Shown one piece after another: positions 1 through 26,789 of a DNA stretch of 64,000 bases. Each line of letters opens with the position of its first letter. Within the stretch, counting starts at the first letter, position 1. This DNA is from Terriglobia bacterium (GTDB taxonomy: Bacteria > Acidobacteriota > Terriglobia > 20CM-2-55-15). The notes under the pieces were generated by a model. It was not told where the DNA came from. It saw only the letters and a list, made by a program, of their open reading frames with translations, and did not search any database. The stretch lies in NCBI GenBank assembly GCA_965198225.1, contig CBDAOY010000009.1, positions 224,001 to 288,000 on the forward strand, in the 5' to 3' direction. Position numbers and translations under genes: made by a program.

Positions 1-534
1 GGAAAGACTGTCGCTTTCTTACGAGGGATCAACGTCGCGGGCCATAGGATGACTGCGATGGCCGACGTCGTCCGAGTATTCGAGTCGCTCGGATTCGCGA
101 ATGTCAGAACGTACATCCAGAGTGGAAACGTTCTGTTCGACACACGGGCCAGGAGCCTCGGACGATTGCGTCTGAAGACCGAACAGGCACTCGGCGACCA
201 ACTGGGTGCGGAGGTCACGGTCCTGCTAAGGACGCTGTCGGAGATCGTGAGAATCGTGGAGCGCGACCCGTTCAAGAAGAACCCGGTGGCCAGTGCCAAG
301 CCGTTCGTGACGTTCATGTCCGCGGCGCCAGCCAGGACTCCGGCACTGCCACTGCGTTCTCCGAAGGGCGATGTCGAAGTCTTTGAGATCGTGGGGACCG
401 AAGCGTTCTCGCTCTCGATCGAAAAGAAAGGTCGTTTCGGATTCCCGAACAACTTCATCGAAACGAAGTTCGGAGTTCCCAGCACGACCCGCAATTGGAA
501 CGCGGTACGCAAGGTGGCGTCTCTGGGATCCTGA
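1..534 (+). CDS. DUF1697 family protein (5' end outside window)
   Basis: Frame open from base 1 (GKTVAFLRGINVAGHR); motifs VRTYIQSGNV and T-RNWN. Confidence 0.85.
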   Translation, partial: GKTVAFLRGINVAGHRMTAMADVVRVFESLGFANVRTYIQSGNVLFDTRARSLGRLRLKTEQALGDQLGAEVTVLLRTLSEIVRIVERDPFKKNPVASAKPFVTFMSAAPARTPALPLRSPKGDVEVFEIVGTEAFSLSIEKKGRFGFPNNFIETKFGVPSTTRNWNAVRKVASLGS

Positions 535-571
535 ATCAGAAGCGACGATCCGGGAATTCGCGAACTCTCGC

Positions 572-1132
572 ATGCACCCTCAGCTACAGACGATCCGCGA
601 TGACTTTGCGGACGCTGACCAGCGACTTCATCACCTACGGGATGAGGTACCCGAGGACCGGTGGCTCGAGCGTGTGAATCCCAGCCGCTGGTCAATCGCG
701 GAGTGCGTGGGCCACCTGAACCTGACAACGAGAAAGTTTGAACCGGTGATCCGCGAGGCATTGGACCGCGCCGGCGCACTGGGCGGCCCGGTGCCCCGCC
801 GTTATCGCCGAAACCTGGTGGGCTGGCTGCTGTGGCGATCCGCGGGCCCGCCGGCAAGACTTCGCGTGAAGACCCCGGCGGCGTTTGTTCCGAGGGACGA
901 CGGCGGGCCGGCGGAATTGATAGCGGAGTTCGACCGGTGGCAGTCCGAACAGCTCGGTTGGGTGGACGCGGCCGATGGCCTGCCCTTGAACCGGTTGCAG
1001 ATCACGTCACCGTTCGACAGCCGCGTACGATATAACTTGTACGCGTGTCTCAGCATCTTGCCGCGACACCAGCATCGCCATCTCTGGCAGGCGGAGCAGG
1101 TGTGGCAAGACCTGAGGACGGGCGGCTTGTAA
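572..1132 (+). CDS. DinB-like family protein
   Basis: WSIAECVGHL near the N-terminus and HQHRHLWQA near the C-terminus; ATG 572. Confidence 0.8.
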   Translation: MHPQLQTIRDDFADADQRLHHLRDEVPEDRWLERVNPSRWSIAECVGHLNLTTRKFEPVIREALDRAGALGGPVPRRYRRNLVGWLLWRSAGPPARLRVKTPAAFVPRDDGGPAELIAEFDRWQSEQLGWVDAADGLPLNRLQITSPFDSRVRYNLYACLSILPRHQHRHLWQAEQVWQDLRTGGL

Positions 1133-1217
1133 CGAGGCTGCCTGTTGACCCTGCAAACCGGGCCGGTCCGAGCTAGGTGTGCCTGAATGATGGCGGGGAG
1201 GAACTCGAGGATCGGGT

Positions 1218-1285
1218 GTAGGTGCGCTCTATGAGCGCACGTGTTACCGGCTCGAAAAGTGTGCGGTCATAGACCGCGCCGACAC
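1218..1285. repeat. GTAG-type REP inverted pair (family A)
   Basis: GTAG-GTGCGCTC-TAT-GAGCGCAC at 1218-1240 and an inverted, slightly degenerate GTGCGGTC variant at 1261-1285. Confidence 0.85.
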
Positions 1286-1339
1286 TTCGTTCGAACACAC
1301 GGCTCTCGAAAAGGCCCACCGTCGAAAGGAGCGTATTCT

Positions 1340-2653
1340 TTGCAAGCACGAGTAGTCTGCATCACGGCTGTTACGATTCTCATTGTTGGTTGCCGAGCGC
1401 CAGACGCGAATATGACATCTTCGGCGACGGACGGGAACGTCGAGGTTTCCGAGTGGCGGGGCTATACCGACGAAGAGATTGAATCTTTCAGCTCCGACCT
1501 CGATCTGGTCAATTGGGACGACGGCGGCGAGATCAGCCGCTTTGCCTTCCTGAATACGTCGTCTTTCTTTCCCACCGCAACGATCGATCGCGGGGTTAGG
1601 GTCGCTCGACTCGATTACTCCCTGGATAGTGAGCTCGCCGCCTATTCTGTGACTCTCGGCGCACGGACCCTGTCGTTCGATGAGTACGTGGACCAGGTGG
1701 CCGTGGATGGCATCGTAATACTTCACCGGGGAAAGGTCACCTACGAGAAGTATCCGCGGATGCGCGCCGACGAGGGTCACCTCCTGTTTTCATTGAGCAA
1801 GATCTACGTATCCACACTCGTCGCGATTCTGGAGGACAAAGGCCTGGTCTCGGTCGAAGAGCCGATCGATAGCTACATACCCGAGCTCGCCTCGAGCGGC
1901 TGGCGTGGTGTCAGGGTCCGCGACATCCTCGACATGGCATCGGGTATCGATTCGCTCGAGTGGATCGACGGGGCCTATACGGATCCGAACCGCAAGCATT
2001 ACCAGTACGAAGCAAGCCTGGGATGGCTTCCGAAGGTCAATTCCCATCCGCAATCCGTACACCAGGGATCGACCTATGCTTTCCTGGCGAAGCTCGCCCG
2101 GCTCACCGGGCCCGGAGAACGGTTCGAATACGTCAGCGTCAATTCCGCAGTTCTCGGCTGGATGGTCGAGAAGCTTGCCGGGAAGAGTTTTGCGGAAGTT
2201 CTTTCCGACGAGATTTGGAGCCGCATCGGTGCCGAGAACGATGGGTTGGTTACGGTGAACGACTCCGGCATTGCCGCGGTCCACGGCGGGATCATCGGGA
2301 ACCTCCGTGACGTCGCCCGGTTCGGACTGTTGTTCACCCCCAGCCGTGTCGCCCTCAGCCCAGAGCAGATCGTCTCCGACGCATACCTTCAGAAGATTCA
2401 GTCCGGGGGACGCCCGGAGTTGATGGCAGATTCCGGCTACGCGAGCCAGAAGCCACCACCACGTTATGTCAGCTACCAGTGGCAGGTATATGAAGACGGG
2501 TCATTCTTCAAGGGAGGTTTCGGCGGTCAGGGTCTCTACGTGGACCCCGGCAAGGATATCGTCCTCGCGTTTGTAGGAACGCATGGATACGGGGAAGAAA
2601 ATCTTCCTCCGCCCCTGGAGGTATGCGTGAAGATGTTCTCCGAGATGTACTGA
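1340..2653 (+). CDS. Serine hydrolase (beta-lactamase class C / NylB-like), probable lipoprotein
   Basis: SLSK (SxxK), YVSVN and LLDM-like ILDMASG motifs; lipobox IVGC; AAAGGAG before TTG 1340. Confidence 0.85.
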   Translation: MQARVVCITAVTILIVGCRAPDANMTSSATDGNVEVSEWRGYTDEEIESFSSDLDLVNWDDGGEISRFAFLNTSSFFPTATIDRGVRVARLDYSLDSELAAYSVTLGARTLSFDEYVDQVAVDGIVILHRGKVTYEKYPRMRADEGHLLFSLSKIYVSTLVAILEDKGLVSVEEPIDSYIPELASSGWRGVRVRDILDMASGIDSLEWIDGAYTDPNRKHYQYEASLGWLPKVNSHPQSVHQGSTYAFLAKLARLTGPGERFEYVSVNSAVLGWMVEKLAGKSFAEVLSDEIWSRIGAENDGLVTVNDSGIAAVHGGIIGNLRDVARFGLLFTPSRVALSPEQIVSDAYLQKIQSGGRPELMADSGYASQKPPPRYVSYQWQVYEDGSFFKGGFGGQGLYVDPGKDIVLAFVGTHGYGEENLPPPLEVCVKMFSEMY

Positions 2654-2684: not shown

Positions 2685-3095
2685 ATGGCAGAACTGAAGA
2701 CAAAACAAACCAACCAGAGTGTGACGAAGTTCCTGAACGCGATCGACGACAAGAAAAGACGTCAGGATTGCCGGGTCGTCCTGAAGATCATGAAACAGGC
2801 CACTAAGGCGCCACCCAGGATGTGGGGCAAGAATATAGTCGGATTCGGCAACGATCACTACAAGTACGCAAGCGGTCGTGAGGGGGACTGGTTCGTGGCG
2901 GGATTCTCGCCGCGCAAACAGGATTTGACGCTTTATTTGACGCCCGAATTCGAAGGTCGGGAAGCACTCCTCGGTAAGCTCGGCAAGCACAAGACCGGCA
3001 AGTCGTGCCTGTACATCAAGAACCTGGACGATGTCGACCTGGAAGTACTCGAAAAACTTGTCACACAGTCGGTCCGACAGACCCGATCCTCATAG
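2685..3095 (+). CDS. DUF1801 (YdhG-like) protein
   Basis: MWGxxIVGFG, GFSPRK and LGKHKTGKSCLYIK motifs. Confidence 0.9.
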   Translation: MAELKTKQTNQSVTKFLNAIDDKKRRQDCRVVLKIMKQATKAPPRMWGKNIVGFGNDHYKYASGREGDWFVAGFSPRKQDLTLYLTPEFEGREALLGKLGKHKTGKSCLYIKNLDDVDLEVLEKLVTQSVRQTRSS

Positions 3096-3143
3096 TCCGC
3101 AGTTACGACCGCAAACAATCCCCCGAGAAGAGGAACAACGAAG

Positions 3144-3713
3144 ATGAACGAACTGGGCGCAAACTACGGACCGCTGGCCGGCTTGATTGGGACTTGGGAA
3201 GGCGACAAAGGTATGGACGTCGCACCGGAGCCGGAGGGCGCCGAGGAAAGCCCCTACTACGAGACCATCGTGTTTGAGGGTGTCGGGGACATTGAGAACG
3301 CGGAGTCGCAGGAGCTCACTGCCGTTCACTATCGGCAGAAGGTGCGCCGCAAGTCGAACGACGAGGTCTTTCACCATGAAACGGGATACTGGATGTGGGA
3401 CGCGAAGGCCGGGATCGTGATGCATTCGCTGGTCATTCCTCGCGGCGTGGGAGTGATTGCCGGCGGCACGTGGGATGAGTCCCGTCGGGCCGAGAACCGG
3501 GTCACCCTCGAAGTCGCTGCGAAGCACGACGACCCCGACTGGACCATCATCCAGTCACCGTTCATGAGGGAGAACGCACGAACTCTCGAATTCCGCCACA
3601 CCATCACGGTCGGCGGCGGAAGTTTCGCCTATTCGGAGACCACGATCGTGGAGATATACGGGAGGGTCTTTGAGCACACCGACCAGAACCAACTGACGTT
3701 ACGAGAGGGCTAA
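3144..3713 (+). CDS. Nitrobindin/FABP-like heme-binding beta-barrel (DUF1794)
   Basis: GPLAGLIGTWEG, FHHETGYW and C-terminal FEHTDQNQL. Confidence 0.85.
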   Translation: MNELGANYGPLAGLIGTWEGDKGMDVAPEPEGAEESPYYETIVFEGVGDIENAESQELTAVHYRQKVRRKSNDEVFHHETGYWMWDAKAGIVMHSLVIPRGVGVIAGGTWDESRRAENRVTLEVAAKHDDPDWTIIQSPFMRENARTLEFRHTITVGGGSFAYSETTIVEIYGRVFEHTDQNQLTLREG

Positions 3714-3753
3714 TTTGGCTAAGACTGGATAGAGAAAGCTGTCAGTTGGGATT

Positions 3754-3820
3754 AACCACGGAGGCGCGAAGGCACGGAGGGTTACCTTGTTCTTCTTCGT
3801 GCCTCTGTGCCTCCGTGGTT
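3754..3820. repeat. Intergenic inverted repeat AACCACGGAGGC...GCCTCCGTGGTT
   Basis: About 25-bp imperfect arms flanking a short spacer. Confidence 0.75.
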
Positions 3821-3862
3821 CAAAAGATGTCTCCGTCTATGGCCTCCGGCGCCAGACGACTT

Positions 3863-4273
3863 ATGTACTGTCCAAATCCCGAGTGCCCCGACACCCAGGC
3901 CACCGGGTTTCGAGCGGAATACAGAAGCGACCTGACCCTGTGTCCCTTCTGCGGCGACGGCCTGGTCTCCACGCTGGAGGCCGTAGACCCACCCCAAGGC
4001 AATCGATCGGATGTGGCGGACGACGAGGAGTTTGAAGTCGTTTTTGAAACGGGGAACGCCACGGAAGTCGCCATCATAAAGTCTCTGCTGGAAGCAGAGG
4101 CAATACCCTATCTGACACGCGGCGAAGACCAGTTCGACGCGTTCCGCGGCCTGTTCCGCAGCACGATGTTCAACCCGAGCGGCCGACCGGTCGTTTTCTC
4201 GGTCCCCGCGAGAATGGCACCAGAAGCCAGACAGCTCCTCGAGGAAACAGAGCTGCCCGACGAAGACGCCTGA
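3863..4273 (+). CDS. Zn-ribbon + DUF2007 domain protein
   Basis: MYCPNPECPD...CPFCG followed by IIKSLLEAEAIPY. Confidence 0.75.
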   Translation: MYCPNPECPDTQATGFRAEYRSDLTLCPFCGDGLVSTLEAVDPPQGNRSDVADDEEFEVVFETGNATEVAIIKSLLEAEAIPYLTRGEDQFDAFRGLFRSTMFNPSGRPVVFSVPARMAPEARQLLEETELPDEDA

Positions 4274-4378
4274 TGGTCGAGGCGGATCGGGGGAGCCTCG
4301 TGATAGTCTTGCTGGGCCGGTTGCGGGAAGCCCTTCCGGGCCCTCGTGCCGGCTGGCACCCCAACCAGGAACGATGAT

Positions 4379-5176
4379 TTGGTCGACGATCTCGAACATC
4401 ACGAAGAAAGCTACTCGGCAAAGCAGTCCGGCATCGCCTTGACAGTGGAACAGGCGGCGTTCGGTTCCGAGTCCGGACGTAACGGCTACACCTCTCTCGA
4501 ACAGGCCCAGGCCCTTCTCGACTGTGTCAGTCTGGACGCCGAGGCCTGTCTACTGGACCTCGGAGCCGGGCGGGGATGGCCCGGCACACACATCGCCGAA
4601 ACCAGCGGATGCCGGCTCGTTTCGACGGACATACCGATGGATGCGCTGCGGGCAGCCAAGCGAAAGAGTCTCTCGAGCGACACCCACGTGTGTCGTGAAG
4701 TCGTCGCGGCTGAAGCCCTGGCCCTGCCGTTTTGTGCGGGTTCTTTCGATGCTATCGTACACGCGGATGTATTCTGTTGAATCTCAGACAAGCTCTCCGG
4801 GTGGAGAGAAAGCCATCGGGTCCTGAAACAGGATGGCCGAATAGCGGGCTATACCATTCACACACCCGTTGGACTGAGCCCGGCCGAGGAGCGAAGGGCT
4901 TCGGAGCTGGGGCCGACGCAGGTCAACGGACCAGGTTCGCCCGAAGAACTCGCCCGCACAGCGGGCTTCTCCATTTTGGCTCTGGATGATGTCACGGATA
5001 CTTTTCGGGTCTCGTGTGAATCTCTGCTGCGGGCAAGGGAAGAGCTCGAGGAACAACTTCGGGACGAAGAAGGCGACGCGCCCTACGAAGAGGGGCTGGC
5101 GAACCGGAGAGGGCTGCTGCTCGGGATTTCCGAGGGCCTCCTTTGTCGCTCTTTGATCGTGGCGGTCAAAGTCTGA
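4379..5176 (+). CDS. Class I SAM-dependent methyltransferase with in-frame TGA (probable selenocysteine, CU motif)
   Basis: Motif I LLDLGAGRG; LPFCAGSFDAIVHADVFC-TGA(4778-4780)-ISDKLSGWRESHRVLKQDGR continues in frame to TGA 5176; SECIS-like hairpin follows. Confidence 0.8.
4781..4826 (+). promoter_or_regulatory. Putative bacterial SECIS element
   Basis: Stem CTCTCC(4793-98)/GGAGAG(4803-08) with GGGT loop 18 nt after UGA; possible lower stem TCAGAC/GTCCTGA. Confidence 0.7.
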
Positions 5177-5232: not shown

Positions 5233-5886
5233 ATGATGAACAACGTTGCCAACACCTGGATCAAGCGCGCCGTCCTTATTTTCGCGCTTGTCGGGTTCAC
5301 CCTGTCGTCGGCCGGTGCGCAGACATCAGAGGAAGCTGCCCGGTTGTTTGACGCCCTCGGGCTGGAGCCGGGAATGACCGTGGGTGAGGTCGGCGCCGGC
5401 AGGGGAGAGATGACCATCGAAATGGCGAACCGGCTCGGTCCGGAAGGTCACGTCTACACGAACGAACTCGATGCAGCGCGGTTGGAAGACATTCGCAATA
5501 CCCTCAGACGGGACCGGATCGGGAACGTTACAGTTATCGAATCCGGTGAGAACTCGACGAACCTCCCTGAAGGTTGCTGCGATGCCATCTTCATGCGCGA
5601 TGTCTACCACCACCTCACAAGTCCCGCCGAGATCAACCAAAGCATCGTTGCCGCCCTCAAGCCCGGCGGGCGGTTTGCCGTCATTGACTTCGAGCCTCGG
5701 GCCGGCATGAGGCCTGTCGAGGGGGTGCCGGCGAATCGCGGGGGGCACGGAGTCCGTCCGGACCTGATCGTCGAAGAGCTAAGAGCGGCCGGCATGACGG
5801 TGACCCAGCCGAGCGCGGATTGGGTTGCTCGCGCCAGGGGCAACACCCGGATGTTTGTTGTGGTGTTCACGAAGCCGGTGGGATAG
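5233..5886 (+). CDS. Class I SAM-dependent methyltransferase with N-terminal signal peptide
   Basis: [18 protein letters not shown] and ALKPGGR; hydrophobic N-terminus ending AGA-Q; AAGGAG RBS. Confidence 0.85.
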
Positions 5887-5944
5887 CGTTGAGGGCAAAT
5901 ACGGACGCGAATCCTGTGCAGGAAGATTGAAAGGTGTCGATCCT

Positions 5945-6190
5945 ATGAAAGCAGCGAAAACAGGTCGCAACGAACCTTGCCCATGCGGTAGCGGCCAGAA
6001 ATACAAGCAGTGCTGCGCTAGAAAAACCGACGCGAAATCGGAGTTCATGGGCAAGTGGATCGCCGTGGCCCTCGGCGGGCTAATCCTCATCGCGGCGCTC
6101 GGTTTCGCCGCTTCCCTGTCGGAACGTGACTCGAGCAGGCCCCGCCAGGTGTGGTCTGCCGAGCACGGGCACTACCACGACGTGCCCTGA
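5945..6190 (+). CDS. SEC-C motif membrane protein
   Basis: [18 protein letters not shown], one TM helix, C-terminal [10 protein letters not shown]. Confidence 0.85.
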
Positions 6191-6304
6191 TCGCGCGCTT
6201 CGAATTCCCGCAGCCTCAGCCGGTTTGCGCGGCACCGCGTCTCGTTCGGTGTCAGCATCCGCCTTCGTCGGGTAAAGGGCTCGCGTTTGCCGACAGGGAG
6301 TGCG

Positions 6305-7333
6305 ATGGAAATCGGCAAGCAGTTTCATGGTCAACTGGGCAGGTCCCTCAACGACGAAGTCTGGGCGCTTCTAGGGAAAAGTGACCGGAGCAAAGACGAC
6401 AATCGGCGGATGGTCCACACCGCCCACGCCTCTCACTACCACTGGCTTCAGGCGGGCACCCCGGTGAACGAACAGCGGGGGGAATGGCTCATTTCTCACG
6501 TGTATGCAGAGCTCGGGCTCGCCAACGCCGCGTTGCGTCACGCACAGCGATGCGCAGAGCTCACTGAAACAAACCGGGACCAGCTGGAAGACTTCGATCT
6601 CGCCTATTCGGCTGAAGCGCTGGCGCGCGCTCACGCCATCGCCGGTCACCGGGACGAGGCCCAGGCGCTCAGAGAAAGGGCGCGGGAACTAGGCGATCAG
6701 ATCAATGGACCGGAAGACAAGAAGATCTTCGATGGGGACCTTGCCGCCGGAAACTGGGCAGGCGTGGACGGGCGGCAGGGGAGTGACGAGCGGGGATTCG
6801 GCCCGACCATGATTCGCGAGTGCCGACCCGAAGAGATCGCTTCCATCCTCGAAGTGATCAACGATGCCGCTGCAGCCTACCAGGGAGTGATTCCTGCGGA
6901 TCGTTGGAAGCAACCGTACATGCCCGAGGACGAACTGCGCGACGAGATGGTCGGCGGCGTCGTGTTCTGGGGTTACTACGGCGACGGACAGCTGGCCGGC
7001 GTCATGGGAATCCAGGACGTCGGGGACGTCACCCTCATCCGGCATGCATACGTCCGAACCGAACGCCGGCAAACAGGAATCGGGGGCCGCCTGCTCGAGA
7101 GACTCAAAGAAAAAAGTACGCTCCCGTACCTAGTCGGAACCTGGGCCGCCGCGACCTGGGCGATCGACTTCTACGAGAAACACGGATTCCGACGGCTGTC
7201 TCCCGAAGAGACTGTAAGAGTCCTGAACAAGTACTGGAGTATCCCTGATCGTCAGATCGAGACGTCGGTGGTGCTGGCGGACGAGAGATGGCCGCAACCG
7301 TCTGTTCCGGCATCGGGGAGCGAAGGGACTTGA
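6305..7333 (+). CDS. Helical hypothetical domain fused in frame to a GNAT acetyltransferase (GNAT ATG at 6809)
   Basis: N-part AHASHYHW...RGEWLISHVY; C-part IRHAYVR..RQTGIGGRLL and AIDFYEKHGF. Confidence 0.7.
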   Translation: MEIGKQFHGQLGRSLNDEVWALLGKSDRSKDDNRRMVHTAHASHYHWLQAGTPVNEQRGEWLISHVYAELGLANAALRHAQRCAELTETNRDQLEDFDLAYSAEALARAHAIAGHRDEAQALRERARELGDQINGPEDKKIFDGDLAAGNWAGVDGRQGSDERGFGPTMIRECRPEEIASILEVINDAAAAYQGVIPADRWKQPYMPEDELRDEMVGGVVFWGYYGDGQLAGVMGIQDVGDVTLIRHAYVRTERRQTGIGGRLLERLKEKSTLPYLVGTWAAATWAIDFYEKHGFRRLSPEETVRVLNKYWSIPDRQIETSVVLADERWPQPSVPASGSEGT

Positions 7334-7387
7334 CCTGAACGGGCATTGAGGTGTTTCCGCCGAGGCACCCCGAAAAGGAGACTGGGA

Positions 7388-8905: not shown

Positions 8906-8912
8906 TGGCGTG

Positions 8913-9434: not shown

Positions 9435-9528
9435 GGAACCGGATCGTGAAGAATTCAAGACCTGAAACACCCGGGCGAAGCGGCCGAGCGTTGCTGCTTC
9501 CGAACTAATCGAAAGAGGCCGGTTGAGG

Positions 9529-14919: not shown

Positions 14920-14925
14920 GGAAAC

Positions 14926-16021: not shown

Positions 16022-16034
16022 AGCGGAGGAGGAA

Positions 16035-16844: not shown

Positions 16845-16872
16845 AGGCTGTTGAATCTTTTTGGGGGAGATG

Positions 16873-17253: not shown

Positions 17254-18042
17254 ATGGAAGCGACTTTGACGCCAGATGAGATTATCGAGCGATCGTTCGG
17301 GGATTACTTCTGGGTTCCCGAGGACGTCACCGTCGTCGACAGACCCGAGATCATCTACTACTCGTGCCCACGCGATGTGGGCTATCTGAATATGGTAACC
17401 CGGATCCGTGCCGGCGCGGATCAGGTCGCCGGCCTGATCGAGGAGGTCCTAGCGGCGCACCGCGGGCGGCGTTCCACCTGGGTCGTCCCGTCAAACGACC
17501 GGAACAGGGATCTCGAGCGGCGACTGCTGGAAGCCTCCTACTCGTCGCACGAGTACCGCGTGTGTACGGCGCCGGTCGACGAATATTCCTGTGCCCGCGA
17601 GAACACAGAAATCGTCGTCCGGGTCATCGACGGCATGGAGCGACTGCGGGACGCCGTGTGGGTCGGAGCCCGGGCTTTCGGAGAACCGGCCGATATCACC
17701 GACGCACAGTTCGAAAGCGATCTTCGGCTGTGTACGGGGGCCGAACCGAGAGTCTACCGGTTTGTTGCCTACGAAAAGCGAACCGAGCGGCCGGTATGCA
17801 CGGGAAACATGACACTGTTTCGCGACCACGCCTTCGCCTTCTTCTGGGGCGGCGGAACCGTTCCCGAAGCACGTCGGCGCGGTTTCTATTCGGCGGTCTT
17901 GACCGCCCGGGTGGGCCTGGCCCGGAACCTCGGGATATCGACGGTCGGTATGTGCGCGCGAAGCGACACATCCGCCCCCATCGTCACCCGCTTCGGGTTT
18001 CGGCCCTCCGGCGTTTTTCACCTCTGGGACCGCGTCGCATGA
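17254..18042 (+). CDS. GNAT family acetyltransferase
   Basis: FFWGGGTVPEARRRGFY and SAPIVTRFGF. Confidence 0.8.
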   Translation: MEATLTPDEIIERSFGDYFWVPEDVTVVDRPEIIYYSCPRDVGYLNMVTRIRAGADQVAGLIEEVLAAHRGRRSTWVVPSNDRNRDLERRLLEASYSSHEYRVCTAPVDEYSCARENTEIVVRVIDGMERLRDAVWVGARAFGEPADITDAQFESDLRLCTGAEPRVYRFVAYEKRTERPVCTGNMTLFRDHAFAFFWGGGTVPEARRRGFYSAVLTARVGLARNLGISTVGMCARSDTSAPIVTRFGFRPSGVFHLWDRVA

Positions 18043-18504
18043 CAAGGACGGGTTTCATCCTCCGGCGGGTACAGACGCCCGATGAACTCGCCGAAGCTCT
18101 TGCGATTCGCAGGGAAGTCTTCGTCAGCGAGCAGGGCATACCGGCCGAGTTGGACGCCGACGGCCGCGACACGACCGGGCTTCACGTTCTGATCTACGAC
18201 GGCGAAATCGCGGCGGCAACCGGGAGAGCCTGTCTGGAGAACGATGAGGCGACACTGGCCCGAATCGCGGTTCGCCGCGAATACAGGGGGCATGGTCTTG
18301 GGGGTCGGGTCGTGCGGGAGTTGGAGAGATGGGCCGTCGAAGAAGGGGCGAACCGGTTCGTGCTCTATCCCCACGCCTACCTTGAAAGCTTCTACGAGCC
18401 TCGGCTATCGGAAAACCTCCGAGGCTGGAACAGTGGGCGAACACCGGCTGATAGAGATGGAAAGAACATCCGGCCTGCAAAGAGAAGGTCAGGGAACTAC
18501 CTGA
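18039..18504 (+). pseudogene. ElaA/YjcF-type GNAT with frameshift near 18397
   Basis: IRREVFVSEQGIP..ELD..D and RIAVRREYRGHGLG; expected FYxSLGY is split across frames. Confidence 0.7.
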
Positions 18505-18510
18505 AACGCC

Positions 18511-20118: not shown

Positions 20119-20770
20119 GTGAACCATCCAAGAGATAGTACCCGAATCCTACACGATCGAGAACGAGCATATGCGGATCTATTCCGACGGTCTGAACATC
20201 TTCGATCATGCCGTCAACCAGCCGCCCGAGATTCCGCCCAACACACAGTGGCGTTACCGCAACAGCGACCCCCTGACGCTGGGAAAGATCATCCGGGAAA
20301 CCGTCGAAGCGCGGGGTGAAAGCTACCTCCAGTTTCCGCAGAAGGCGCTGTTCGACCGGATCGGTGCGCGCAACTTCGTACTCGAGACCGACGCGTGGGG
20401 CAACTTCATCATGACCGGCTACGACTACGGGGCGGCGCGGGACTGGGCCCGGTTCGGGCTGCTGCACCTCTGGGATGGCGTCTGGAGGGGCGAACGGATC
20501 CTGCCCGAAGGTTGGGTGGATTTCATTTCCACACCCGCTCCGGCCGATGAGAGCACAGGCTACGGGGGCCTCTTCTGGCTGAACCGGGGCGGCGCCATGG
20601 GTCGTATTCCCGCAGACGCGTTCTGGGCTTCAGGGTTCATGGGTCAGACAACGATGGTCATCCCGTCCCGGAACCTCGTTCTCGTCCGGATGGGCCCCAG
20701 CCCGGGGGGCTCGGACGGCTATATCAATGAGCTCGTCGGCCGGATACTCGAAGCGCTGCCTCCCGGATAG
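20119..20770 (+). pseudogene. Serine hydrolase lacking its N-terminal half
   Basis: From about 20141 matches the C-half of 7388-8905 (YRNSDP, FPQKALFD, ARDWARFG); no SxxK; stop at 20137 in that frame. Confidence 0.75.
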
Positions 20771-20775: not shown

Positions 20776-21105
20776 ATGGCATACGACGAAACAGTCACGC
20801 GCCGCCTGCGGGCGGCGATGGACGCTGAAGGGAACGTCGTCGAGAAGAAGATGTTCGGCGGCCTGGCGTTCATGATCGGCGGCAACATGTGCTGCGGAGT
20901 CACCGGTGACGAGTTGATGGTCCGTGTCGGAGGTCAGACCTACGAAGACGCTTTAGATCTTCCACACGCGAGAGAGATGGATTTCACAGGCCGACCACTG
21001 AAGGGGTTTGTTTACGTGGCGTCGGAGGGTTTCGCTGCCGAGGCGGACCTGAACGCCTGGGTCGCACGCGGAATCGCTTTTGCGAAAAGCCTGCCCCCGA
21101 AGTAG
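20776..21105 (+). CDS. TfoX N-terminal domain family protein
   Basis: MAYDE..EKKMFGGLAFM...MDFTGRPLKGFVYV. Confidence 0.9.
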   Translation: MAYDETVTRRLRAAMDAEGNVVEKKMFGGLAFMIGGNMCCGVTGDELMVRVGGQTYEDALDLPHAREMDFTGRPLKGFVYVASEGFAAEADLNAWVARGIAFAKSLPPK

Positions 21106-21140
21106 CGCAGCAGGGTCGGACGGACGAGAGGAGAAGCGTA

Positions 21141-21494
21141 ATGATCAAAGGCGTTCACACGATGTTCTATTCTTCCCAGGCTGAGGAGTTGCGCGCGTTC
21201 ATACGCGACAAACTGGGGTTCCCGTATACCGATGTCGGCGAAGGGTGGCTCATATTCAACGCGCCCGAAGCCGACATGGGCTGCCACCCGTCCGGCACGG
21301 AAGACGGCAAGACTTCCGGCACCCACGCTATTTCCTTCTACTGCGACAACATCGAAGACACCGTGCGTGAACTGAAGGACCGGGGCGTCGAGTTCGTCGA
21401 GGGCATTTCGGATCAGGGATTCGGCCTGGTAACCCACTTTCGGATGCCGGGCGACGTGATCGTCCAGCTATACCAGCCGCACTATTCGAAGTAA
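21141..21494 (+). CDS. VOC/glyoxalase family protein
   Basis: IKGVHTMFYS, DVGEGWLIF and ISFYCDNIE. Confidence 0.85.
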   Translation: MIKGVHTMFYSSQAEELRAFIRDKLGFPYTDVGEGWLIFNAPEADMGCHPSGTEDGKTSGTHAISFYCDNIEDTVRELKDRGVEFVEGISDQGFGLVTHFRMPGDVIVQLYQPHYSK

Positions 21495-21501
21495 GGGTGG
21501 T

Positions 21502-21810
21502 TTGAATCAGGAGTTGGACAGGTTGTGGAAGGACCCGCGAAACTGGCGGGGCGGGTTCATCTACCACTGCGCCGAAGACTCGCGGTTGATCGTCAGCCAG
21601 AGGTCGGCCTGGGCCGGATACAGCTTCAACCACGCCCACCGTGCTGCTCTACCGGCGCTGTTCGGATTCCTGGCAGCCATGGGAGCCCCGTTTCTGTTCC
21701 TGGTCTGGATGGACTTGCCATGGAGCGCCGTCTGGGCCCTGCTGACTTTCACGCTGGCGATCGTGCTGCTCAGCGCGATCTGTCATTGGGAGTTCACACG
21801 ACCGAGATGA
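21502..21810 (+). CDS. DUF5808-like membrane protein
   Basis: DPRNWRGGFIY..DSRLIV...GYSFNHAH plus 2 TM segments; TTG start. Confidence 0.65.
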   Translation: MNQELDRLWKDPRNWRGGFIYHCAEDSRLIVSQRSAWAGYSFNHAHRAALPALFGFLAAMGAPFLFLVWMDLPWSAVWALLTFTLAIVLLSAICHWEFTRPR

Positions 21811-22123: not shown

Positions 22124-23380
22124 TTACTCGATGGACGCGATCACCTTGCCGATGAAGTTGTCCAGCGCCGGCCCGCCACGGATCCACCGGACGACGACGA
22201 CCAGGTCGTTCTCCCAATCGATGTAGATGACGTTGCTGCCTGAACCGACGAAGCGCACGGAGCTTTCCGGGGCGCTCGGCAGCGACCGCCGTAGCGTACC
22301 GTCCGGGCGGGCCACCGCCGGGTTCAGGAACCAGTTCATGAACCCGTAGGACGGGTTGGCGGTCCCGGGTGTTCGAGCCATGTCGATCCACTCGGTCGAG
22401 ACGATCCGGCGGTCCTTCCACTTCCCGTTCCGCAGGAACAGGTATCCGAATCGCGCCATGTCATGGGCGTTGATGAACATCCCTCCGCCCCAATGCCCAC
22501 CTCCAGTCACTGACTGCATCTGCTGGCCGTCGAGCATGACCCAGGAGTTCTCGTAGCCATGCCACCGCCAGGTGTTGGACGCCTCGATCGGATTCATGAG
22601 CTCGTCGCGCAGCACCTGCGGCAGCGGCTTCCTGAAGACGTTTAACGCGGCCAGTGCGAGGATGTTGACCCGTACGTCGTTGTACTTGTAGACCGTGCCG
22701 GGCTCGTTGAGCGGCATGTTCGGCCAATCTTTCTTATCCACGTCCCGCGGAGGCCGGTCCGCCCATGCCCGCTTGCCCCACAGCGTCCCTCGCCAGTCAC
22801 TGGTCTGGCGCAGCAGGTGGTCCCAGGTGATCTTGGCGTTGTGTTCGGAGTCGAACAGAGTGTCGTCCGGCATGTAGTCCACTGCCCGATTGTGAATGTC
22901 CTGGATCAGCCCTTTCTGCCAGGCAAGGCCGACGGTAGTCGACAGGAAGGTCTTCGTGACACTGAAAGTCATGTCGACCTGCTTCGTGTCCCCCCATTCG
23001 GCGACGATATATCCGTTGCGGATCACCATTCCGCTCAACGGGGCGCGGGTTTTCGTCGGACCGATTGCCTCGGCGAACGGTTCGACCATCCGGGTCTCGA
23101 GATAAAACCCGAGATCCTTCGGATTGGAGCTTTCGCTCGCGATCGCCATCTCGACCGCCTCGTTCAGGATGGCGGAGCTCATGCCGACTTCTTCGGGCGT
23201 CTTCTTTTCCCAGGTGTGTCGAGACGGGTAATAGGTGTCGCCTTGCCCCTGGCCGGACTGGGCGAGGGCAACGCCGGGCCAGTTCACCGCTGCGGTCGCA
23301 ACGAGGAGCGCGGTCAGCGACACGACCACGGCCGTGCGCCGGCCCTTGATGCCGACGCTCCAGGTCGACGTGATTCTCAT
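22124..23380 (-). CDS. Serine hydrolase (beta-lactamase family), exported
   Basis: FSVTK, YKYND and GGHWGGGM; signal ending ALA-Q; AGGAGG RBS. Confidence 0.9.
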   Translation of the reverse strand: MRITSTWSVGIKGRRTAVVVSLTALLVATAAVNWPGVALAQSGQGQGDTYYPSRHTWEKKTPEEVGMSSAILNEAVEMAIASESSNPKDLGFYLETRMVEPFAEAIGPTKTRAPLSGMVIRNGYIVAEWGDTKQVDMTFSVTKTFLSTTVGLAWQKGLIQDIHNRAVDYMPDDTLFDSEHNAKITWDHLLRQTSDWRGTLWGKRAWADRPPRDVDKKDWPNMPLNEPGTVYKYNDVRVNILALAALNVFRKPLPQVLRDELMNPIEASNTWRWHGYENSWVMLDGQQMQSVTGGGHWGGGMFINAHDMARFGYLFLRNGKWKDRRIVSTEWIDMARTPGTANPSYGFMNWFLNPAVARPDGTLRRSLPSAPESSVRFVGSGSNVIYIDWENDLVVVVRWIRGGPALDNFIGKVIASIE

Positions 23381-23650: not shown

Positions 23651-24820
23651 ATGACTGACATACGCATCGGGCTTCTCGCTTCTCACAATGGCACAACGAT
23701 TCAAGCGATTCTCGATGCTGTCAGCGGTCGGCGGCTCGACGTCGAGCCTGCAGTCGTGATCAGCAACAATAGTCAGTCCGGCGCAATCGTGCGCGCCCGC
23801 GACAACGGTGTTCCGGCAATCCACATCAGCGGAAGAACACATCCCGACACACGGGAGGAGGACTCAGCGCTCTGTCAGGCACTGGCCGACCACGGGGTCG
23901 ATCTGGTGTTCCTGGCAGGCTACATGAAGAGATTGGGTCCGTTGACCCTTGCCCGCTTCCGCGGGCAAATCCTGAACACGCATCCCGCCCGGTTGCCGAA
24001 GTTCGGGGGAAAGGGAATGTACGGAAGCCGTGTTCACGAAGCCGTTTTAGCTTCCGGCGATAGGACAACCGGCGTTTCGATTCACATCGTCGACGCCGAC
24101 TACGACACGGGCCAGGTGATTGCGCGGCGCGAGGTGGCGGTGATGGCCGATGACAACCCGGAGACCTTGGCAGCCAGGGTCCGGGAACGGGAGCGAGAAT
24201 TTGTGGTCGAAACCATACAAGCCATCGCGATGGGTCGGATCAACCTCCCCGGATACTCCCATGGAGGGCGAGGCCGGCGCCTGCACGACGACCCGCCACG
24301 AGCGAGTACCGTCACTATCGCCGACTACGATCGGCGATGGACGATGCTTTTTGATCAAGAGAAGACCAGGCTGGCTCGCATTATTCCAGAATCGATGATC
24401 GAGCACATTGGAAGCACCTCCGTGGCGGGCCTGGCGGCGAAGCCGGTCGTCGATATAATGTTAGGCGTCGATCAACTTCCACGGATTGAACGGGCGCTGC
24501 CGCAACTCGAGGCAAGCGGTTACGAGTACGTGCCGGAATATGAGGTCTATCTTCCCGAGAGGCGGTATTTCCGCGGCTCAGTCGAAGGCACCCGGACCCA
24601 TCTGCACGGGGTGGAGCTTCAGGGGGATTTCTGGATCCGCCATCTCGCGTTCCGCGATTACCTCAGACGCACTCCTCAAAGAGCGACCGAATACGCAAAC
24701 CTCAAGCGACGCCTGGCCGAACAATACCGTACGGACTCGATGGGCTACACCGAGGCGAAGTCCGAATTCATCGAAAGTTGCCTTAAGCACGCCGGAGGTG
24801 TCTCAGAAGAGGCCGAGTGA
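23651..24820 (+). CDS. purN: Phosphoribosylglycinamide formyltransferase fused in frame to a GrpB (UPF0157) domain
   Basis: LAGYM, ILNTHP..LPKFGGKGMYG and YDTG, then IEHIGSTSV.GLAAKPVVDI and HLAFRDYLR. Confidence 0.75.
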   Translation: MTDIRIGLLASHNGTTIQAILDAVSGRRLDVEPAVVISNNSQSGAIVRARDNGVPAIHISGRTHPDTREEDSALCQALADHGVDLVFLAGYMKRLGPLTLARFRGQILNTHPARLPKFGGKGMYGSRVHEAVLASGDRTTGVSIHIVDADYDTGQVIARREVAVMADDNPETLAARVREREREFVVETIQAIAMGRINLPGYSHGGRGRRLHDDPPRASTVTIADYDRRWTMLFDQEKTRLARIIPESMIEHIGSTSVAGLAAKPVVDIMLGVDQLPRIERALPQLEASGYEYVPEYEVYLPERRYFRGSVEGTRTHLHGVELQGDFWIRHLAFRDYLRRTPQRATEYANLKRRLAEQYRTDSMGYTEAKSEFIESCLKHAGGVSEEAE

Positions 24821-24821: not shown

Positions 24822-25667
24822 ATGACCGACAAGCCGACCACTCTCGTTTCCGTCCACGGAGGCCACAGCGCCGAGTTCTGCAGTCACGCCCAAGACACTC
24901 TCGAGGAAGTCATCCGAGCCTACATCGAACGGGGGTTCTCCTGGGTCGGCATCACCGAGCACATGCCGGCGATCCGGGACGAATTGGTCCCCGACGAGGA
25001 AAAGGAGGCCGGTCTCGACTCGGCTGGCATGTACGAACGGTTCGCACGCTACATCGCGACGTGCCGGACACTGCAGCAAAAGTATGCCGCAAGCCTGGAC
25101 ATCCTTGTGGGCTTCGAAACCGAGACATGTGAGGGATACGAAAGCTTCGTCGGAAACCTCCGGAACGAGTTCAAGCCGGACTACATCGTCGGATCCGTGC
25201 ACCATGTCGACGATATCTCCATCGACACGTCCCGGGAGCTGTACGAACGGGCGGCCGGAGGGCGTGGCGGCATCGATGGCCTCTACTGCGCGTATTTCGA
25301 CCACCAGTACGAGATGATCCGGGCCCTACACCCTGCGGTCGTCGGACACTTCGACCTGATACGGATCTTCGACCCGGGCTACAGCGAGCGACTCGAGCGA
25401 CCCGAGATCCGGAAGAGGGTCGAGCGCAACCTTGCGGCGGTCCGGGAACTGGACCTCATACTGGACTTCAATGTCCGCGCGATGACGAAAGGTCAGTCCG
25501 AACCCTACATCGCGCCTTCGATCCTTCGGGCCGCCCAGAACATGGGGATCGCCGTCGTGCCCGGTGACGATTCGCACGGCGTGAGGAATGTCGGACGCTA
25601 CTGCGATGAAGGCGTTCGCATCCTTGCGGAATACGGCTTCGAGACGGCCTGGCGCAAGCCCGTCTAA
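24822..25667 (+). CDS. Histidinol-phosphatase, PHP (HisJ) family
   Basis: SVHGGHS..FCSHA, GITEH, GSVHH, GHFDL and GDDSH. Confidence 0.85.
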   Translation: MTDKPTTLVSVHGGHSAEFCSHAQDTLEEVIRAYIERGFSWVGITEHMPAIRDELVPDEEKEAGLDSAGMYERFARYIATCRTLQQKYAASLDILVGFETETCEGYESFVGNLRNEFKPDYIVGSVHHVDDISIDTSRELYERAAGGRGGIDGLYCAYFDHQYEMIRALHPAVVGHFDLIRIFDPGYSERLERPEIRKRVERNLAAVRELDLILDFNVRAMTKGQSEPYIAPSILRAAQNMGIAVVPGDDSHGVRNVGRYCDEGVRILAEYGFETAWRKPV

Positions 25668-25687
25668 AAAAAGGGGCAGAGCCCCCT
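25667..25687 (-). terminator. Intrinsic terminator-like hairpin (T-tract on the - strand)
   Basis: A7 followed by GGGGC-AGA-GCCCC. Confidence 0.4.
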
Positions 25688-25751
25688 GAATTCTGATCGG
25701 TGCTTGACTGATCGAGCGTCCGGCCGTACCTTCCCCTTAAAGGAAACCTGC

Positions 25752-26402
25752 ATGAGTCAGACCACCGCACTCGAGGGACGACCGATTTCCTGGACCGGGC
25801 TAATCGCCCTGGGACTCGGCTCCGTAATGGCGGTCGCGTTCATCGCGGGCTTCGCCGTGCCGTAGCTGATGTTCAGCGCAGAAGTGCTGGAGCGGTTTGC
25901 GGGGCGGGAGCCGTGGGTATTCGCGCACGTCCTGGGCGGTTCGATCGCGTTGGTCATTGGCCCCGTGCAGATCTGGTACGGGTTGAAACGACGCCGGCTC
26001 AGACTCCACCGCTTGCTCGGCTTCGCCTACCTGGCGACGGTCGGCCTCGGTTGCGTCGCCGCCTTCTACCTGGCATTCACGACCGAGATCAGCTGGGTGT
26101 TCGGCATGGGCCTTGGCGGGCTGGCCGTGGCCTGGGTCATCACGACCGGGATGGCTTTCATAGCGATCAAGAAGCGGTTGATCATCCAGCATCAGGAGTG
26201 GATGATCCGCAGCTACGTAACGACGTTCGGGTTCGTGACGTTTCGCGTGATGGTCGGGATCTTCCAGGTGACGGGGGTGGGCACGCTCTTCGAACAACTG
26301 GTTGCAGCCAGCTGGTTCTGTTGGGCGGTCCCGCTGCTGATCACCGAAGCGATCATTCAAGGCCGCAAGGTCCTCGGATCGGCCCAGACGCACAGCACCT
26401 GA
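25752..26402 (+). pseudogene. DUF2306 membrane protein with in-frame TAG at 25863-25865
   Basis: AAGGA RBS, ATG 25752, TM helix, FAVP*LMF, then AHVLGG, LHRLLGFAY and HQEWMIRSY. Confidence 0.7.
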
Positions 26403-26411
26403 CGACTCACG

Positions 26412-26789
26412 ATGCCGCATCTGACTCTCGAACACACGGGAAACGTCGATCCCAACGTCGAGTTCGAAGCCGTTTTTCTTCGCTTGCATTCCGTCCTCGC
26501 CGATGCGGGCATCAAGCTGGCCAACTGCAAGAGTCGTGCCGCGGAACGCGATCGCTTCTGTGTCGCCGACGGCAGCCGGTCTTCCGCTTTCGTACACCTG
26601 GACGTGCGATTCATGGAGGGAATACCCGACGAATCGAAGCAGAAGATCGGACAAGGCACGCTCGCGGTACTGCAAGAATGCTTCAAGACGCCGGAGGGTA
26701 TCGACGATCTTCAAATTACCGTCGAGATCCGGGACATCCAACGCGACGCCTACTTCAAGTTCCCGGCGGGCACCCTGAATTATCGTTAG
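26412..26789 (+). CDS. 5-carboxymethyl-2-hydroxymuconate isomerase/tautomerase family
   Basis: N-terminal catalytic Pro (MPHLTLEH), KSRA and AFVHL. Confidence 0.85.
   Translation: MPHLTLEHTGNVDPNVEFEAVFLRLHSVLADAGIKLANCKSRAAERDRFCVADGSRSSAFVHLDVRFMEGIPDESKQKIGQGTLAVLQECFKTPEGIDDLQITVEIRDIQRDAYFKFPAGTLNYR

What the first reader, a model, noticed from the sequence alone, without database searches (positions are those of the whole stretch)
1..26789. 27-kb co-oriented accessory gene train that appears to lose genes by internal deletion while keeping start/stop coupling
Seen: about 40 small unrelated genes, all + strand except one, from families typical of integron cassettes (GNAT, VOC, DinB, NUDIX, TfoX, DUF1801, MTases), yet no attC-like sites and many genes overlap by ATGA/TGATG. 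At least four remnants keep only the first and last parts of a gene (10472, 12715, 17133, 20119), with two in-frame fusions and several micro-ORFs. The neighbouring 37 kb of core genes is nearly intact. Inference: a fast-turnover polycistronic array in which short-homology deletions remove gene interiors and selection keeps the translation signals for downstream genes. The way genes are added is unknown and does not look integron-like.
Basis: partly seen in the sequence, partly recalled or inferred. Interest (0 to 1): 0.72.

Follow-up and report, generated by a model that had tools for sequence, protein, structure and literature searches.

The report
Accessory gene train between gatCA and gatB
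About 45 small, unrelated enzyme genes have piled up head-to-tail in the gap between two essential operons that face each other, forming a fast-changing gene-exchange hotspot with clear deletion scars; it is a clean example of a known kind of region, not an integron.

Summary
The observation largely holds. From about 4.8 kb upstream of base 1 to 26789 there are about 45 co-oriented small genes of unrelated families. One real gene lies on the minus strand. No attC-like sites were found.

This is the second-longest same-strand run in the genome (39 genes, of 1716 runs). Among the six long or small-gene runs I annotated, it is the only one made of miscellaneous enzymes.

- 10472 keeps the first ~28 and last ~30 codons of a 170-aa DUF5946 gene.
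- 17133 is an in-frame fusion of the first 24 and last 10 codons of a ~130-aa VOC gene.

The other two differ. 20119 is a plain 5' truncation, and 12715 is only a shortened upstream remnant. Contigs from four studies bridge every junction.

Gene spacing and start/stop overlaps are no tighter than the genome average. Base composition is native.

Across the family, the convergent gatCA-ompH / gatB gap ranges from 1 kb (empty) to 37 kb here and 68 kb in a congener.

Best reading: a hotspot of gene gain and loss without mobile elements. Added genes share the upstream operon's orientation, and deletions are bounded by the neighbouring genes. How genes enter is still unknown, and polycistronic transcription is untested. 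This is a new member of a known kind; interest is moderate.

The parts
1..534 (+). DUF1697 gene. The frame is open at base 1; likely start at 49 or 58. The train continues upstream to window -4779.
   Evidence: Pfam PF08002 3-137/137; upstream genes
572..1132 (+). DinB_2 family gene
   Evidence: 49% aa to a DinB gene in a different small train of G012
1185..1330 (.). Palindromic repeat element, up to 378 overlapping blastn matches genome-wide. A second copy lies at 21904-22037.
1412..2653 (+). Beta-lactamase-family serine hydrolase. Also present in the trains of G002 and G003.
2685..4273 (+). DUF1801, nitrobindin-like (THAP4_heme-bd) and DUF2007 genes. In the relatives searched their homologues lie at other loci.
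4346..5176 (+). Methyltransferase pseudogene with an in-frame stop at 4778-4780
   Evidence: Frame continues as methyltransferase after the stop. The G032 homologue aligns across it. The stop is present in contigs of 4 studies.
5233..10041 (+). Methyltransferase, SEC-C protein, GNAT (6305-7333), serine hydrolase (7388-8905), unknown (8913-9434), CYTH
10038..10475 (+). DUF2087 gene. Closest homologues found are in other phyla, at 50% aa or less.
10472..10650 (+). DUF5946 remnant. First ~28 codons (10472-10555) joined out of frame to the last ~30 codons (10558-10650). Its ATG overlaps the DUF2087 stop (ATGA).
10932..13259 (+). Unknown 186-aa gene, DUF1801-OmdA, unknown 179-aa gene, a 20-codon micro-ORF (12715-12777) and NUDIX (12774-13259)
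13276..14332 (+). PQQ-dehydrogenase remnant. It covers profile positions 1-202 of 595 in two frames. The gene is full length (641 aa) in the trains of G001 and G002.
   Evidence: a further 17-nt deletion at 13613 in run X7
14191..17136 (+). Metallophosphoesterase, PhyH, an 80-nt tandem repeat (15891-16021), a FAA-hydrolase-like gene and DUF2164
17133..17237 (+). VOC (glyoxalase-family) remnant. In-frame fusion of codons 1-24 and the last 10 codons. Its GTG overlaps the DUF2164 stop (GTGA).
17254..20073 (+). Unknown 262-aa gene, GNAT and AMP-binding acyl-CoA ligase. The GNAT / AMP-binding pair is shared with G001 and G003.
20123..20770 (+). 5'-truncated serine hydrolase. It matches residues ~275-485 of the full 484-aa gene in the gat train of G032.
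20776..21810 (+). TfoX_N, VOC and a conserved 102-aa gene
22124..23380 (-). The only minus-strand gene: a beta-lactamase-family serine hydrolase
23651..24820 (+). PurN-like / GrpB fusion gene. The same fusion is present in the gat train of G032.
24822..26789 (+). HisJ-type PHP phosphatase, a 53-codon ORF, DUF2306 and CHMI. This is the end of the train.
26925..28808 (-). Conserved 88-aa gene and gatB. This convergent core flank is present in all relatives examined.

Best explanation
The train is a lineage-specific expansion of a gene-flux hotspot without mobile elements. It sits at the tail-to-tail junction of two core units: dciA-gatC-gatA-ompH(-TDO) reading rightwards, and the 88-aa gene with gatB reading leftwards.

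**Shown**
- In other genera of the family this junction is 1-2 kb and holds no accessory gene.
- It holds 10.7-16.7 kb of co-oriented small genes in one sister genus, 37 kb here and 68 kb in a congener.
- The added genes almost always point the same way as gatCA.
- In this genome they are compositionally native.
- Of about 45 units, about 13 are shared at this locus with at least one of five relatives. About 17 have homologues only at other loci of those relatives, some of them in other small trains. About 15 have no close homologue there, and the one traced further has its closest homologues in other phyla.

**Inferred**
- Genes enter singly or in small blocks, by recombination with DNA from the family gene pool and beyond.
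- Only insertions co-oriented with the upstream operon persist. These can be expressed by read-through transcription and avoid head-on transcription.
- Genes are lost through the ordinary deletional bias of bacteria: nonsense mutations, frameshifts and short-homology deletions.
- Deletions that run into a still-useful neighbour are removed by selection. The surviving scars therefore lie inside single genes and often keep the few codons that overlap the upstream gene's stop.
For: **Size of the gatA-gatB gap across the family (gene content)**
- About 1.0 kb in G004, G014, G041 and G044. In G004 and G044, the two I fetched, it holds only ompH and the 90-aa gene.
- 1.8-1.9 kb in G043 and G045, with TDO added.
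- 3.6-5.9 kb in G030, G008 and G009.
- 10.7 kb in G012, 16.7 kb in G032, 36.9 kb in G000 and 68 kb in G003.

**Orientation and content**
- Added genes are co-oriented in G001, G002, G003, G012 and G032.
- Turnover: about 22% colinear DNA match to G003 for window 1-20000, against about 86% for core 28900-48899.
- Homologues at 64-81% nt lie at other loci of relatives.
- The DUF2087 gene's closest homologues are in Latescibacterota and Ignavibacteriales, at 47-50% aa.

**No mobile-element signature**
- No recombinase gene in the train.
- The integron-integrase-like gene is on another contig.
- No shared junction repeats and no attC-like pairs above chance.
- GC, GC3 and codon score equal the genome.

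**Decay lesions of several kinds**.

**Short homology**: in the G033 homologue, both end points of the VOC deletion follow a His codon.

**Literature**: many hotspots lack mobile elements and are proposed to diversify by double recombination at flanking core genes (PMC5635113, abstract and passages read).
Against: - The direction of change (growth or shrinkage) is inferred from the distribution over genera, without a rooted tree. The 1-kb state could equally result from deletion.
- Single-gene order swaps with orientation kept (PhyH/PQQ, and HisJ relative to its neighbours) are not what flank-mediated block replacement predicts.
- Neither is a replacement that starts at codon 3 of a gene and ends 40 nt after its stop.
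- Read-through transcription is unshown. No RNA data were available.
- If the replication origin lies at dnaA (C9:429.5 kb), the train is head-on to replication. If it lies at the GC-skew minimum near C9:200 kb, the train is co-directional. Replication bias as the cause of co-orientation is therefore unresolved.
- Gene calls come from my own crude caller.
Confidence: 0.6

Rival explanations
1. A dedicated gene-capture mechanism that does not use attC. It would move single genes from elsewhere in the genome or pangenome into a fixed chromosomal platform in one orientation. Possible routes are copying through an RNA or single-strand intermediate, or template switching at gene boundaries.
For: - Units the size of one gene differ between close relatives, with borders near start and stop codons.
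- Gene order changes while orientation is kept.
- About 17 train genes have their only close homologues at scattered loci of relatives.
- Genes from unrelated sources abut with a 4-nt overlap. DUF2087 and DUF5946 are not neighbours in the 32 loci fetched from other genomes.
Against: - No recombinase, reverse transcriptase or conserved junction motif is in or beside the train.
- Borders are not uniformly at gene ends. The NUDIX unit carries about 45 nt or more of an older upstream sequence.
- Spacing is like the rest of the genome.
- The other loci in relatives are themselves unsyntenic mosaics. General shuffling of small genes therefore explains the pattern without a platform-specific machine.
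Confidence: 0.08
2. A decayed integron cassette array (a CALIN-like cluster) whose attC sites have all been lost, leaving fused cassettes.
For: - The gene families resemble those I recall as common in integron cassettes, and the genes are co-oriented and small.
- The genome carries an integron-integrase-like gene scoring 446 bits against a cut-off of 265.
- Loss of attC giving fused cassettes is reported for class 1 integrons (PMC4670013; only the search listing and the start of the abstract were seen).
Against: - The integrase-like gene is on another contig, has an internal TGA, and has no cassette-like neighbours.
- attC-like core pairs are at chance level, and none has inner pairing. This scan is crude, and the genome offered no positive control.
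- 46% of spacers are 50 nt or shorter.
- No junction repeat was found.
- Sister genera show the same site empty or holding a few genes, with no integrase.
Confidence: 0.03
3. A functional super-operon. The genes would be kept together and co-oriented because they form one co-regulated stress or detoxification regulon. The turnover would then reflect swapping of redundant members, not a hotspot as such.
For: - Many members are small hydrolases, transferases and dioxygenase-fold proteins of the kind I recall as linked to stress or xenobiotic handling.
- There are no plus-strand terminator-like sites above chance. The counts on both strands together were 18 against 15.5 expected in 1-20000, and 21 against 15.7 in 20001-40000.
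- Spacers are short and operon-like.
Against: - No pathway logic links the families.
- Only about 13 of 45 units are kept at the locus in relatives.
- 5-6 units are dead.
- Repeat elements and spacers of 150-410 nt break the array into several blocks.
- The site is empty in four family genomes (gene content checked in two of them).
Confidence: 0.15
4. An assembly or binning artefact produced the remnants and odd junctions.
For: The genome is in 9 contigs with 2.75% estimated contamination.
Against: Contigs of runs from 4 different studies tile 4001-24000 at near identity and bridge every remnant junction. For example, X7 record 25 spans 4001-14441 and record 31 spans 19011-22003. X3 record 14 and X6 record 22 span the PQQ remnant.
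Confidence: 0.01

Closest known systems
Horizontal-transfer hotspots without mobile elements (Oliveira, Touchon, Cury and Rocha 2017, PMC5635113; abstract and passages read)
   Same: - A short interval between conserved core genes concentrates accessory genes.
- It turns over far faster than its flanks.
- It carries no recognisable mobile-element genes.
   Different: - Those hotspots were defined within species. Here the pattern is traced across genera of one family, with a size series from 1 to 68 kb.
- Near-complete co-orientation with one flanking operon is, as far as I recall, not a stated feature of those hotspots.
- Recombination at the flanks was not tested here.
Sedentary chromosomal integron cassette arrays and CALINs (Cury et al. 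2016, PMC4889954; search listing and abstract only)
   Same: - A long array of small, co-oriented, functionally unrelated genes with high turnover and short spacers.
- Gene families overlap with those I recall from cassettes.
   Different: - No attC sites, no adjacent intI or attI, and spacers often too short for an attC.
- Several members are locus-conserved housekeeping-like genes (TDO, HisJ-type phosphatase).
Deletional bias and pseudogene erosion in bacterial genomes (Mira, Ochman and Moran 2001; recalled, not read here)
   Same: Dead genes shrink through deletions. Lesions at different stages coexist: a nonsense codon, a frameshift and short-homology deletions.
   Different: The scars are confined within single genes in a tightly packed array. 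Three of the seven overlapping junctions involve remnants, which makes the constraint from neighbouring genes unusually visible.
Flexible or hypervariable genomic islands of free-living bacteria such as Prochlorococcus, SAR11 and Salinibacter (search listing only)
   Same: Fixed chromosomal sites with strain- or species-specific gene content.
   Different: As I recall, those islands are often next to tRNA genes or carry integrative elements. This site is a convergent junction of essential genes, with no tRNA gene in the window.

Membership tests
Integron (complete, or CALIN) | attC recombination site after each cassette | tested here: not met
   - No shared junction repeat.
- Core-site pairs: 4 observed against 3.7 expected, none with inner pairing.
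- 46% of spacers are 50 nt or shorter.
- Caveat: the scan used a consensus typed from recall, not IntegronFinder's covariance model. No positive control exists in this genome.
Integron (complete, or CALIN) | Integron integrase (intI) with attI next to the array | tested here: not met
   - The only TIGR02249 match above cut-off is at C6:488798-489706, on another contig, with an internal TGA.
- A 59-codon frame holding a recombinase C-terminal fragment lies 17.5 kb upstream, beyond core genes.
Integron (complete, or CALIN) | Co-oriented, mostly promoterless single-gene units | tested here: inconclusive
   Co-orientation is met. Promoterless status is unknown: there is one sigma-70-like hit in 20 kb, below chance, and no RNA data.
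Hotspot of gene flux without mobile elements | Interval bounded by core genes conserved in relatives | tested here: met
   gatC-gatA-ompH and the 88-aa gene with gatB flank the interval in the family genomes where both lie on one contig in convergent orientation.
Hotspot of gene flux without mobile elements | Much higher gene turnover than the flanks | tested here: met
   About 22% colinear match for the train against about 86% for the core flank in G003. 13 of about 45 units are shared at the locus.
Hotspot of gene flux without mobile elements | No integrase, transposase, phage or conjugation genes inside | tested here: met
   None in G000's train. G032's train holds one IS transposase with an rve domain. 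G003 has an extra 417-aa minus-strand gene beside gatB that I did not annotate.
Hotspot of gene flux without mobile elements | Raised homologous recombination in the flanking core genes | not tested
   This needs population-level alignments of gatA and gatB from close relatives.
Classical genomic island | tRNA-adjacent, integrase, flanking direct repeats, atypical composition | tested here: not met
   - No tRNA gene in the window.
- No integrase in the train.
- GC 0.607 against 0.604 and GC3 0.747 against 0.736 for the genome.
Operon or super-operon | Co-transcription and functional coherence | not testable with these tools
   No RNA holder was listed. The families share no pathway.

The most novel reading that the evidence does not exclude
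This bacterial family has an undescribed way of building 'operon extensions' without integrase or attC. Single genes would be copied or moved from scattered loci, from other trains and from foreign DNA into the tail of the gatCA-ompH unit, always in its orientation. Unit borders would fall close to start and stop codons. This would act as a chromosomal gene-capture platform, doing the job of an integron by a different mechanism.
Probability: 0.07. Interest if true: 0.85.

Novelty: new member of a known kind. Interest (0 to 1): 0.4.

Why it matters
The locus gives a graded natural series: the same junction is empty, or holds 1, about 5, about 13 or about 45 genes, or 68 kb, within one family. 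Such a series can be used to study how accessory genes are added to and removed from a bacterial chromosome when no mobile element is involved, and why they end up in one orientation.

The verified scars show at base level how neighbouring genes limit where deletions can end. If read-through expression from the upstream essential operon is confirmed, the locus would be a simple model for how promoterless newcomers get expressed.

For annotation, it shows that micro-ORFs overlapping a neighbour's stop codon can be the fused ends of dead genes.

Tried and rejected
- **RNA evidence.** The look-up of sequencing runs listed no RNA holder, so expression and operon structure were not addressed.
- **Rfam and tRNA scans** of the window found nothing.
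- **Pfam on 58 stop-to-stop pieces from the gaps**, at E up to 0.5, named no remnant beyond the methyltransferase and PQQ pieces. The DUF5946 and VOC remnants were found only through full-length relatives.
- **tblastn of the short ORFs against the own genome** gave nothing.
- **IS91 landing-pad palindrome.** I re-derived a half-site from the element flanks. In the 60 kb around the train (C9:200000-260000), of which the train is about half, only five one-mismatch matches occur (502 genome-wide), and I read them as chance. The strict pattern has 2 matches, both on other contigs. I dropped this lead.
- **Integrase fragment** 17.5 kb upstream is a lone relic next to a ~200-nt repeat and is not linked to the train.
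- **PurN-like/GrpB fusion** as an in-situ deletion product is rejected. The same fusion occurs in G032's train at 57% aa identity.
- **ORF 20119-20319** is an alternative frame of the hydrolase remnant, matched only through DNA similarity.
- **Replication-strand bias** as the cause of co-orientation is unresolved. The GC-skew minimum lies near C9:200 kb but dnaA is at C9:429.5 kb, and G002 and G003 differ in the orientation of the locus relative to dnaA.
- **Relocation of the SDR and NUDIX genes.** The loci in relatives are themselves unsyntenic, so the direction of movement could not be told.
- **Joints** have sides of 20-34 nt inside the AMP-binding and hydrolase genes. I read them as other organisms' homologues, not as variants of this locus.
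- **** was an empty script.


Full report
**What is there**

The window is G000:C9:224001-288000 in a 6.4-Mb genome of 60% GC in 9 contigs. Earlier notes of this scan call the organism an uncultured soil acidobacterium. I did not verify that label.

Pfam and NCBIfam scans confirm a plus-strand series of small genes from unrelated families between base 1 and 26789. The series does not begin at base 1. It continues upstream to window -4779 with DUF488, tryptophan 2,3-dioxygenase (TDO), a cupin, an SDR, an inorganic pyrophosphatase and others.

Further upstream lie one minus-strand metallo-beta-lactamase-fold gene, a 278-aa gene and a cupredoxin gene. Beyond them is the core unit dciA-gatC-gatA-ompH. 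On the right the train ends at 26789, facing a conserved 88-aa gene and gatB on the minus strand.

The only real minus-strand gene inside the train is a serine hydrolase at 22124-23380.

**Is it more than chance?**

With a simple gene caller of my own, the run is 39 genes long. That makes it the second longest of 1716 same-strand runs, whose mean length is 3.1. The longest and third-longest runs are the flagellar cluster and the ribosomal-protein/rpoBC cluster. Three further runs of 15-17 genes with small median gene size (from the list) are a toxin-antitoxin island, a translation-gene cluster and the nuo operon. Among these six annotated runs, the train is the only one without a common function.

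Its genes are short: median 177 aa against 290 aa for the genome (p 2.6e-5).

It is not more tightly packed than the rest of the genome:
- Median same-strand spacer is 56 nt against 68 nt.
- 46% of spacers are 50 nt or shorter in both.
- Overlapping pairs are 9.8% against 21% (Mann-Whitney p 0.76).

GC, GC3 and codon-usage score match the genome, so there is no compositional sign of recent foreign origin.

**Not an integron**

- There is no shared junction repeat.
- attC-type core-site pairs occur at chance level: 4 against 3.7 expected. None has paired inner arms.
- Nearly half of the spacers are shorter than any attC I recall.
- The scan is crude, and the genome gave no positive control.
- An integron-integrase-like gene exists (446 bits, cut-off 265). 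It lies on contig C6, has an internal TGA, and has no cassette-like neighbours.
- A 59-codon frame holding a recombinase fragment lies 17.5 kb upstream, beyond core genes.

**The remnants**

*10472-10650.* This matches a 170-aa DUF5946 protein (P0001) in two pieces. Residues 1-31 match at 77% identity, and residues 119-170 match in another frame. The middle ~108 codons are missing. The ATG overlaps the stop of the DUF2087 gene.

*17133-17237.* This is a 34-codon ORF. Its first 24 codons match the N-terminus of a 130-aa glyoxalase-family (VOC) protein of G033, and its last 10 codons match that protein's C-terminus. The fusion is in frame. In the G033 homologue both deletion end points follow a His codon, which fits a short-homology deletion. 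The GTG overlaps the stop of the DUF2164 gene.

*20119.* The real feature is a 5'-truncated serine hydrolase at 20123-20770. It is 77% identical in DNA to the last ~210 codons of a full 484-aa gene in G032's own train. The 67 nt before it show no similarity to that gene's start. The 20119 ORF is just another frame.

*12715.* This 20-codon ORF shares sequence with the stretch upstream of the NUDIX homologue in G002, minus about 21 codons. It is an older remnant that travelled with the NUDIX gene. Its parent gene is unknown.

- A methyltransferase gene is interrupted by an in-frame stop at 4778-4780.
- The first third of a PQQ dehydrogenase survives in two frames. The gene is 641 aa and intact in G001 and G002.

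**Assembly check**

Contigs of four runs from four studies cover 4001-24000 at near identity and bridge all these junctions. One population (X7) has a further 17-nt deletion inside the PQQ remnant, as expected for a dead gene. The array itself is stable at this scale.

**Relatives**

The three congeners share about 80% gatB identity with G000. They have trains at the same place with largely different content.

Of about 45 units in G000's train, by my tally:
- 13 are shared at the locus with at least one of five relatives.
- 17 have homologues (64-81% nt) only at other loci.
- 15 have no match in those five relatives.

The searches were DNA-level searches of five whole genomes, plus tblastn against the loci I had fetched.

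Summing the listed matches, about 22% of window 1-20000 matches G003 colinearly, against about 86% of the core stretch 28900-48899.

Some of the 'elsewhere' homologues sit in other small co-oriented trains of G012 (L037, L039). Others sit in small islands inside otherwise syntenic blocks (L031, L033). Others again sit in regions that are themselves unsyntenic.

The DUF2087 gene has its closest homologues in other phyla, at 50% aa or less. DUF5946 is not beside it there. The two genes were therefore brought together in this lineage.

Gene order differs between genomes while orientation is kept. Examples are PhyH/PQQ, and HisJ relative to the PurN-like/GrpB gene.

The PurN-like/GrpB fusion is not a local accident. 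G032 has the same fusion in its train, and every genome with a match has an ordinary purN-like gene elsewhere.

**Recent events**

G002 and G003 are about 95% identical in DNA here. They differ by gene-sized changes:
- An AMP-binding gene is replaced, from its third codon to 40 nt past its stop, by 175 unrelated bases.
- A dCTP-deaminase-like gene is reduced in G003 to codons ~3-18 plus its stop region.
- A cupin gene is reduced in G002 to its last 22 codons.

G012 lacks 4.3 kb that G032 has. The junction fuses the first 67 codons of hisJ to DUF2306.

Deletion scars are thus common in these trains, but they are of several kinds.

**The family series**

gatA and gatB face each other in much of the family. 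The gap between them and its content are:
- About 1.0 kb in G004, G014, G041 and G044. It holds only ompH and the 90-aa gene in G004 and G044, the two I fetched.
- 1.8-1.9 kb in G043 and G045, with TDO added.
- 3.6-5.9 kb in G030, G008 and G009.
- 10.7 kb in G012 and 16.7 kb in G032.
- 36.9 kb in G000 and 68 kb in G003. The G003 interval includes a 25-kb minus-strand block of large genes.

In two other genera gatB is inverted and lies 57-162 kb from gatA. For five other-family genomes where both genes lie on one contig, my arithmetic puts them more than 200 kb apart.

The added genes point the same way as gatCA in all the trains I examined.

**Reading**

The simplest account is a hotspot of gene gain and loss without mobile elements, at a tail-to-tail junction of essential genes. 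This is of the kind described by Oliveira et al. (PMC5635113; abstract and passages read).

Two filters would act on it:
- Insertions persist when they extend the upstream transcription unit.
- Deletions persist when they spare the neighbours.

In both verified cases the retained start overlaps the stop codon of the upstream gene. The constraint is therefore on that neighbour's 3' end, not on signals for downstream genes.

The mode of entry remains open. The single-gene order swaps and the start/stop-precise replacement are not predicted by flank-mediated block exchange. They keep a small probability for a dedicated mechanism.

Direction of change, transcription and replication strand are unresolved.

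Noticed in passing
window 1185-1330 and 21904-22037: A palindromic repeat element of about 140 nt gives up to 378 overlapping blastn matches genome-wide. Two copies sit in the larger gaps of the train. Related copies occur in all five relatives searched, most numerous in G001, G012 and G032.
   Followed up: partly
window 32760-33040: A repeat of about 275 nt between the pyrH-like and tsf genes matches dozens of sites in G012 and G032 at 77-86% identity.
   Followed up: no
L001 (G000:C6:487298-491206): An integron-integrase-like gene scores 446 bits against a cut-off of 265 and has one in-frame TGA. Its neighbours are not cassette-like, and my crude scan found no attC-like cluster nearby.
   Followed up: partly
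L009:11000-12613 (window -9000 to -7387): Contig C3 binned with G032 is 100% identical to G000's gatA-to-cupredoxin stretch. It carries about 1.3 kb extra after the cupredoxin gene, flanked by a 10-nt repeat of the query. It is probably a mis-binned contig from a G000-like strain with an insertion sequence.
   Followed up: partly
L009:2020-4956 (window -17980 to -15044): A second decaying patch lies upstream. It holds an AHSA1 fragment (profile positions 50-124 of 125), a 59-codon frame holding a tyrosine-recombinase C-terminal fragment, and the last ~50 residues of a glucose/sorbosone dehydrogenase.
   Followed up: partly
window 23651-24820: A PurN-like formyltransferase domain is fused to a GrpB domain. 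The fusion is conserved at 57% aa identity in G032. It is distinct from the housekeeping purN-like gene, which has its own internal TGA at C6:109165-109788.
   Followed up: partly
window 15891-16021: Two tandem copies of a GC-rich unit of about 80 nt lie between the PhyH gene and the next gene. blastn shows up to three matches elsewhere in the genome.
   Followed up: no
L037:1-8800 and L039:6900-12600: G012 has other small co-oriented trains at non-gat loci. They hold homologues of G000 train genes (GNAT with DinB; DUF1801, a 278-aa gene and an SDR). One is inserted in a block that is syntenic with G000 C7:550-562 kb.
   Followed up: partly
window 13613: Run X7 has a 17-nt deletion inside the PQQ remnant. 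Minor contigs of X3 and X6 carry +1, -3 and +2 indels at 10760-10821, in the spacer before the gene at 10932.
   Followed up: no
window 8910-9508: Two overlapping ORFs in different frames (8910-9434 and 8942-9508) have no family match and no homologue in the five relatives. This may be another frameshifted gene.
   Followed up: no
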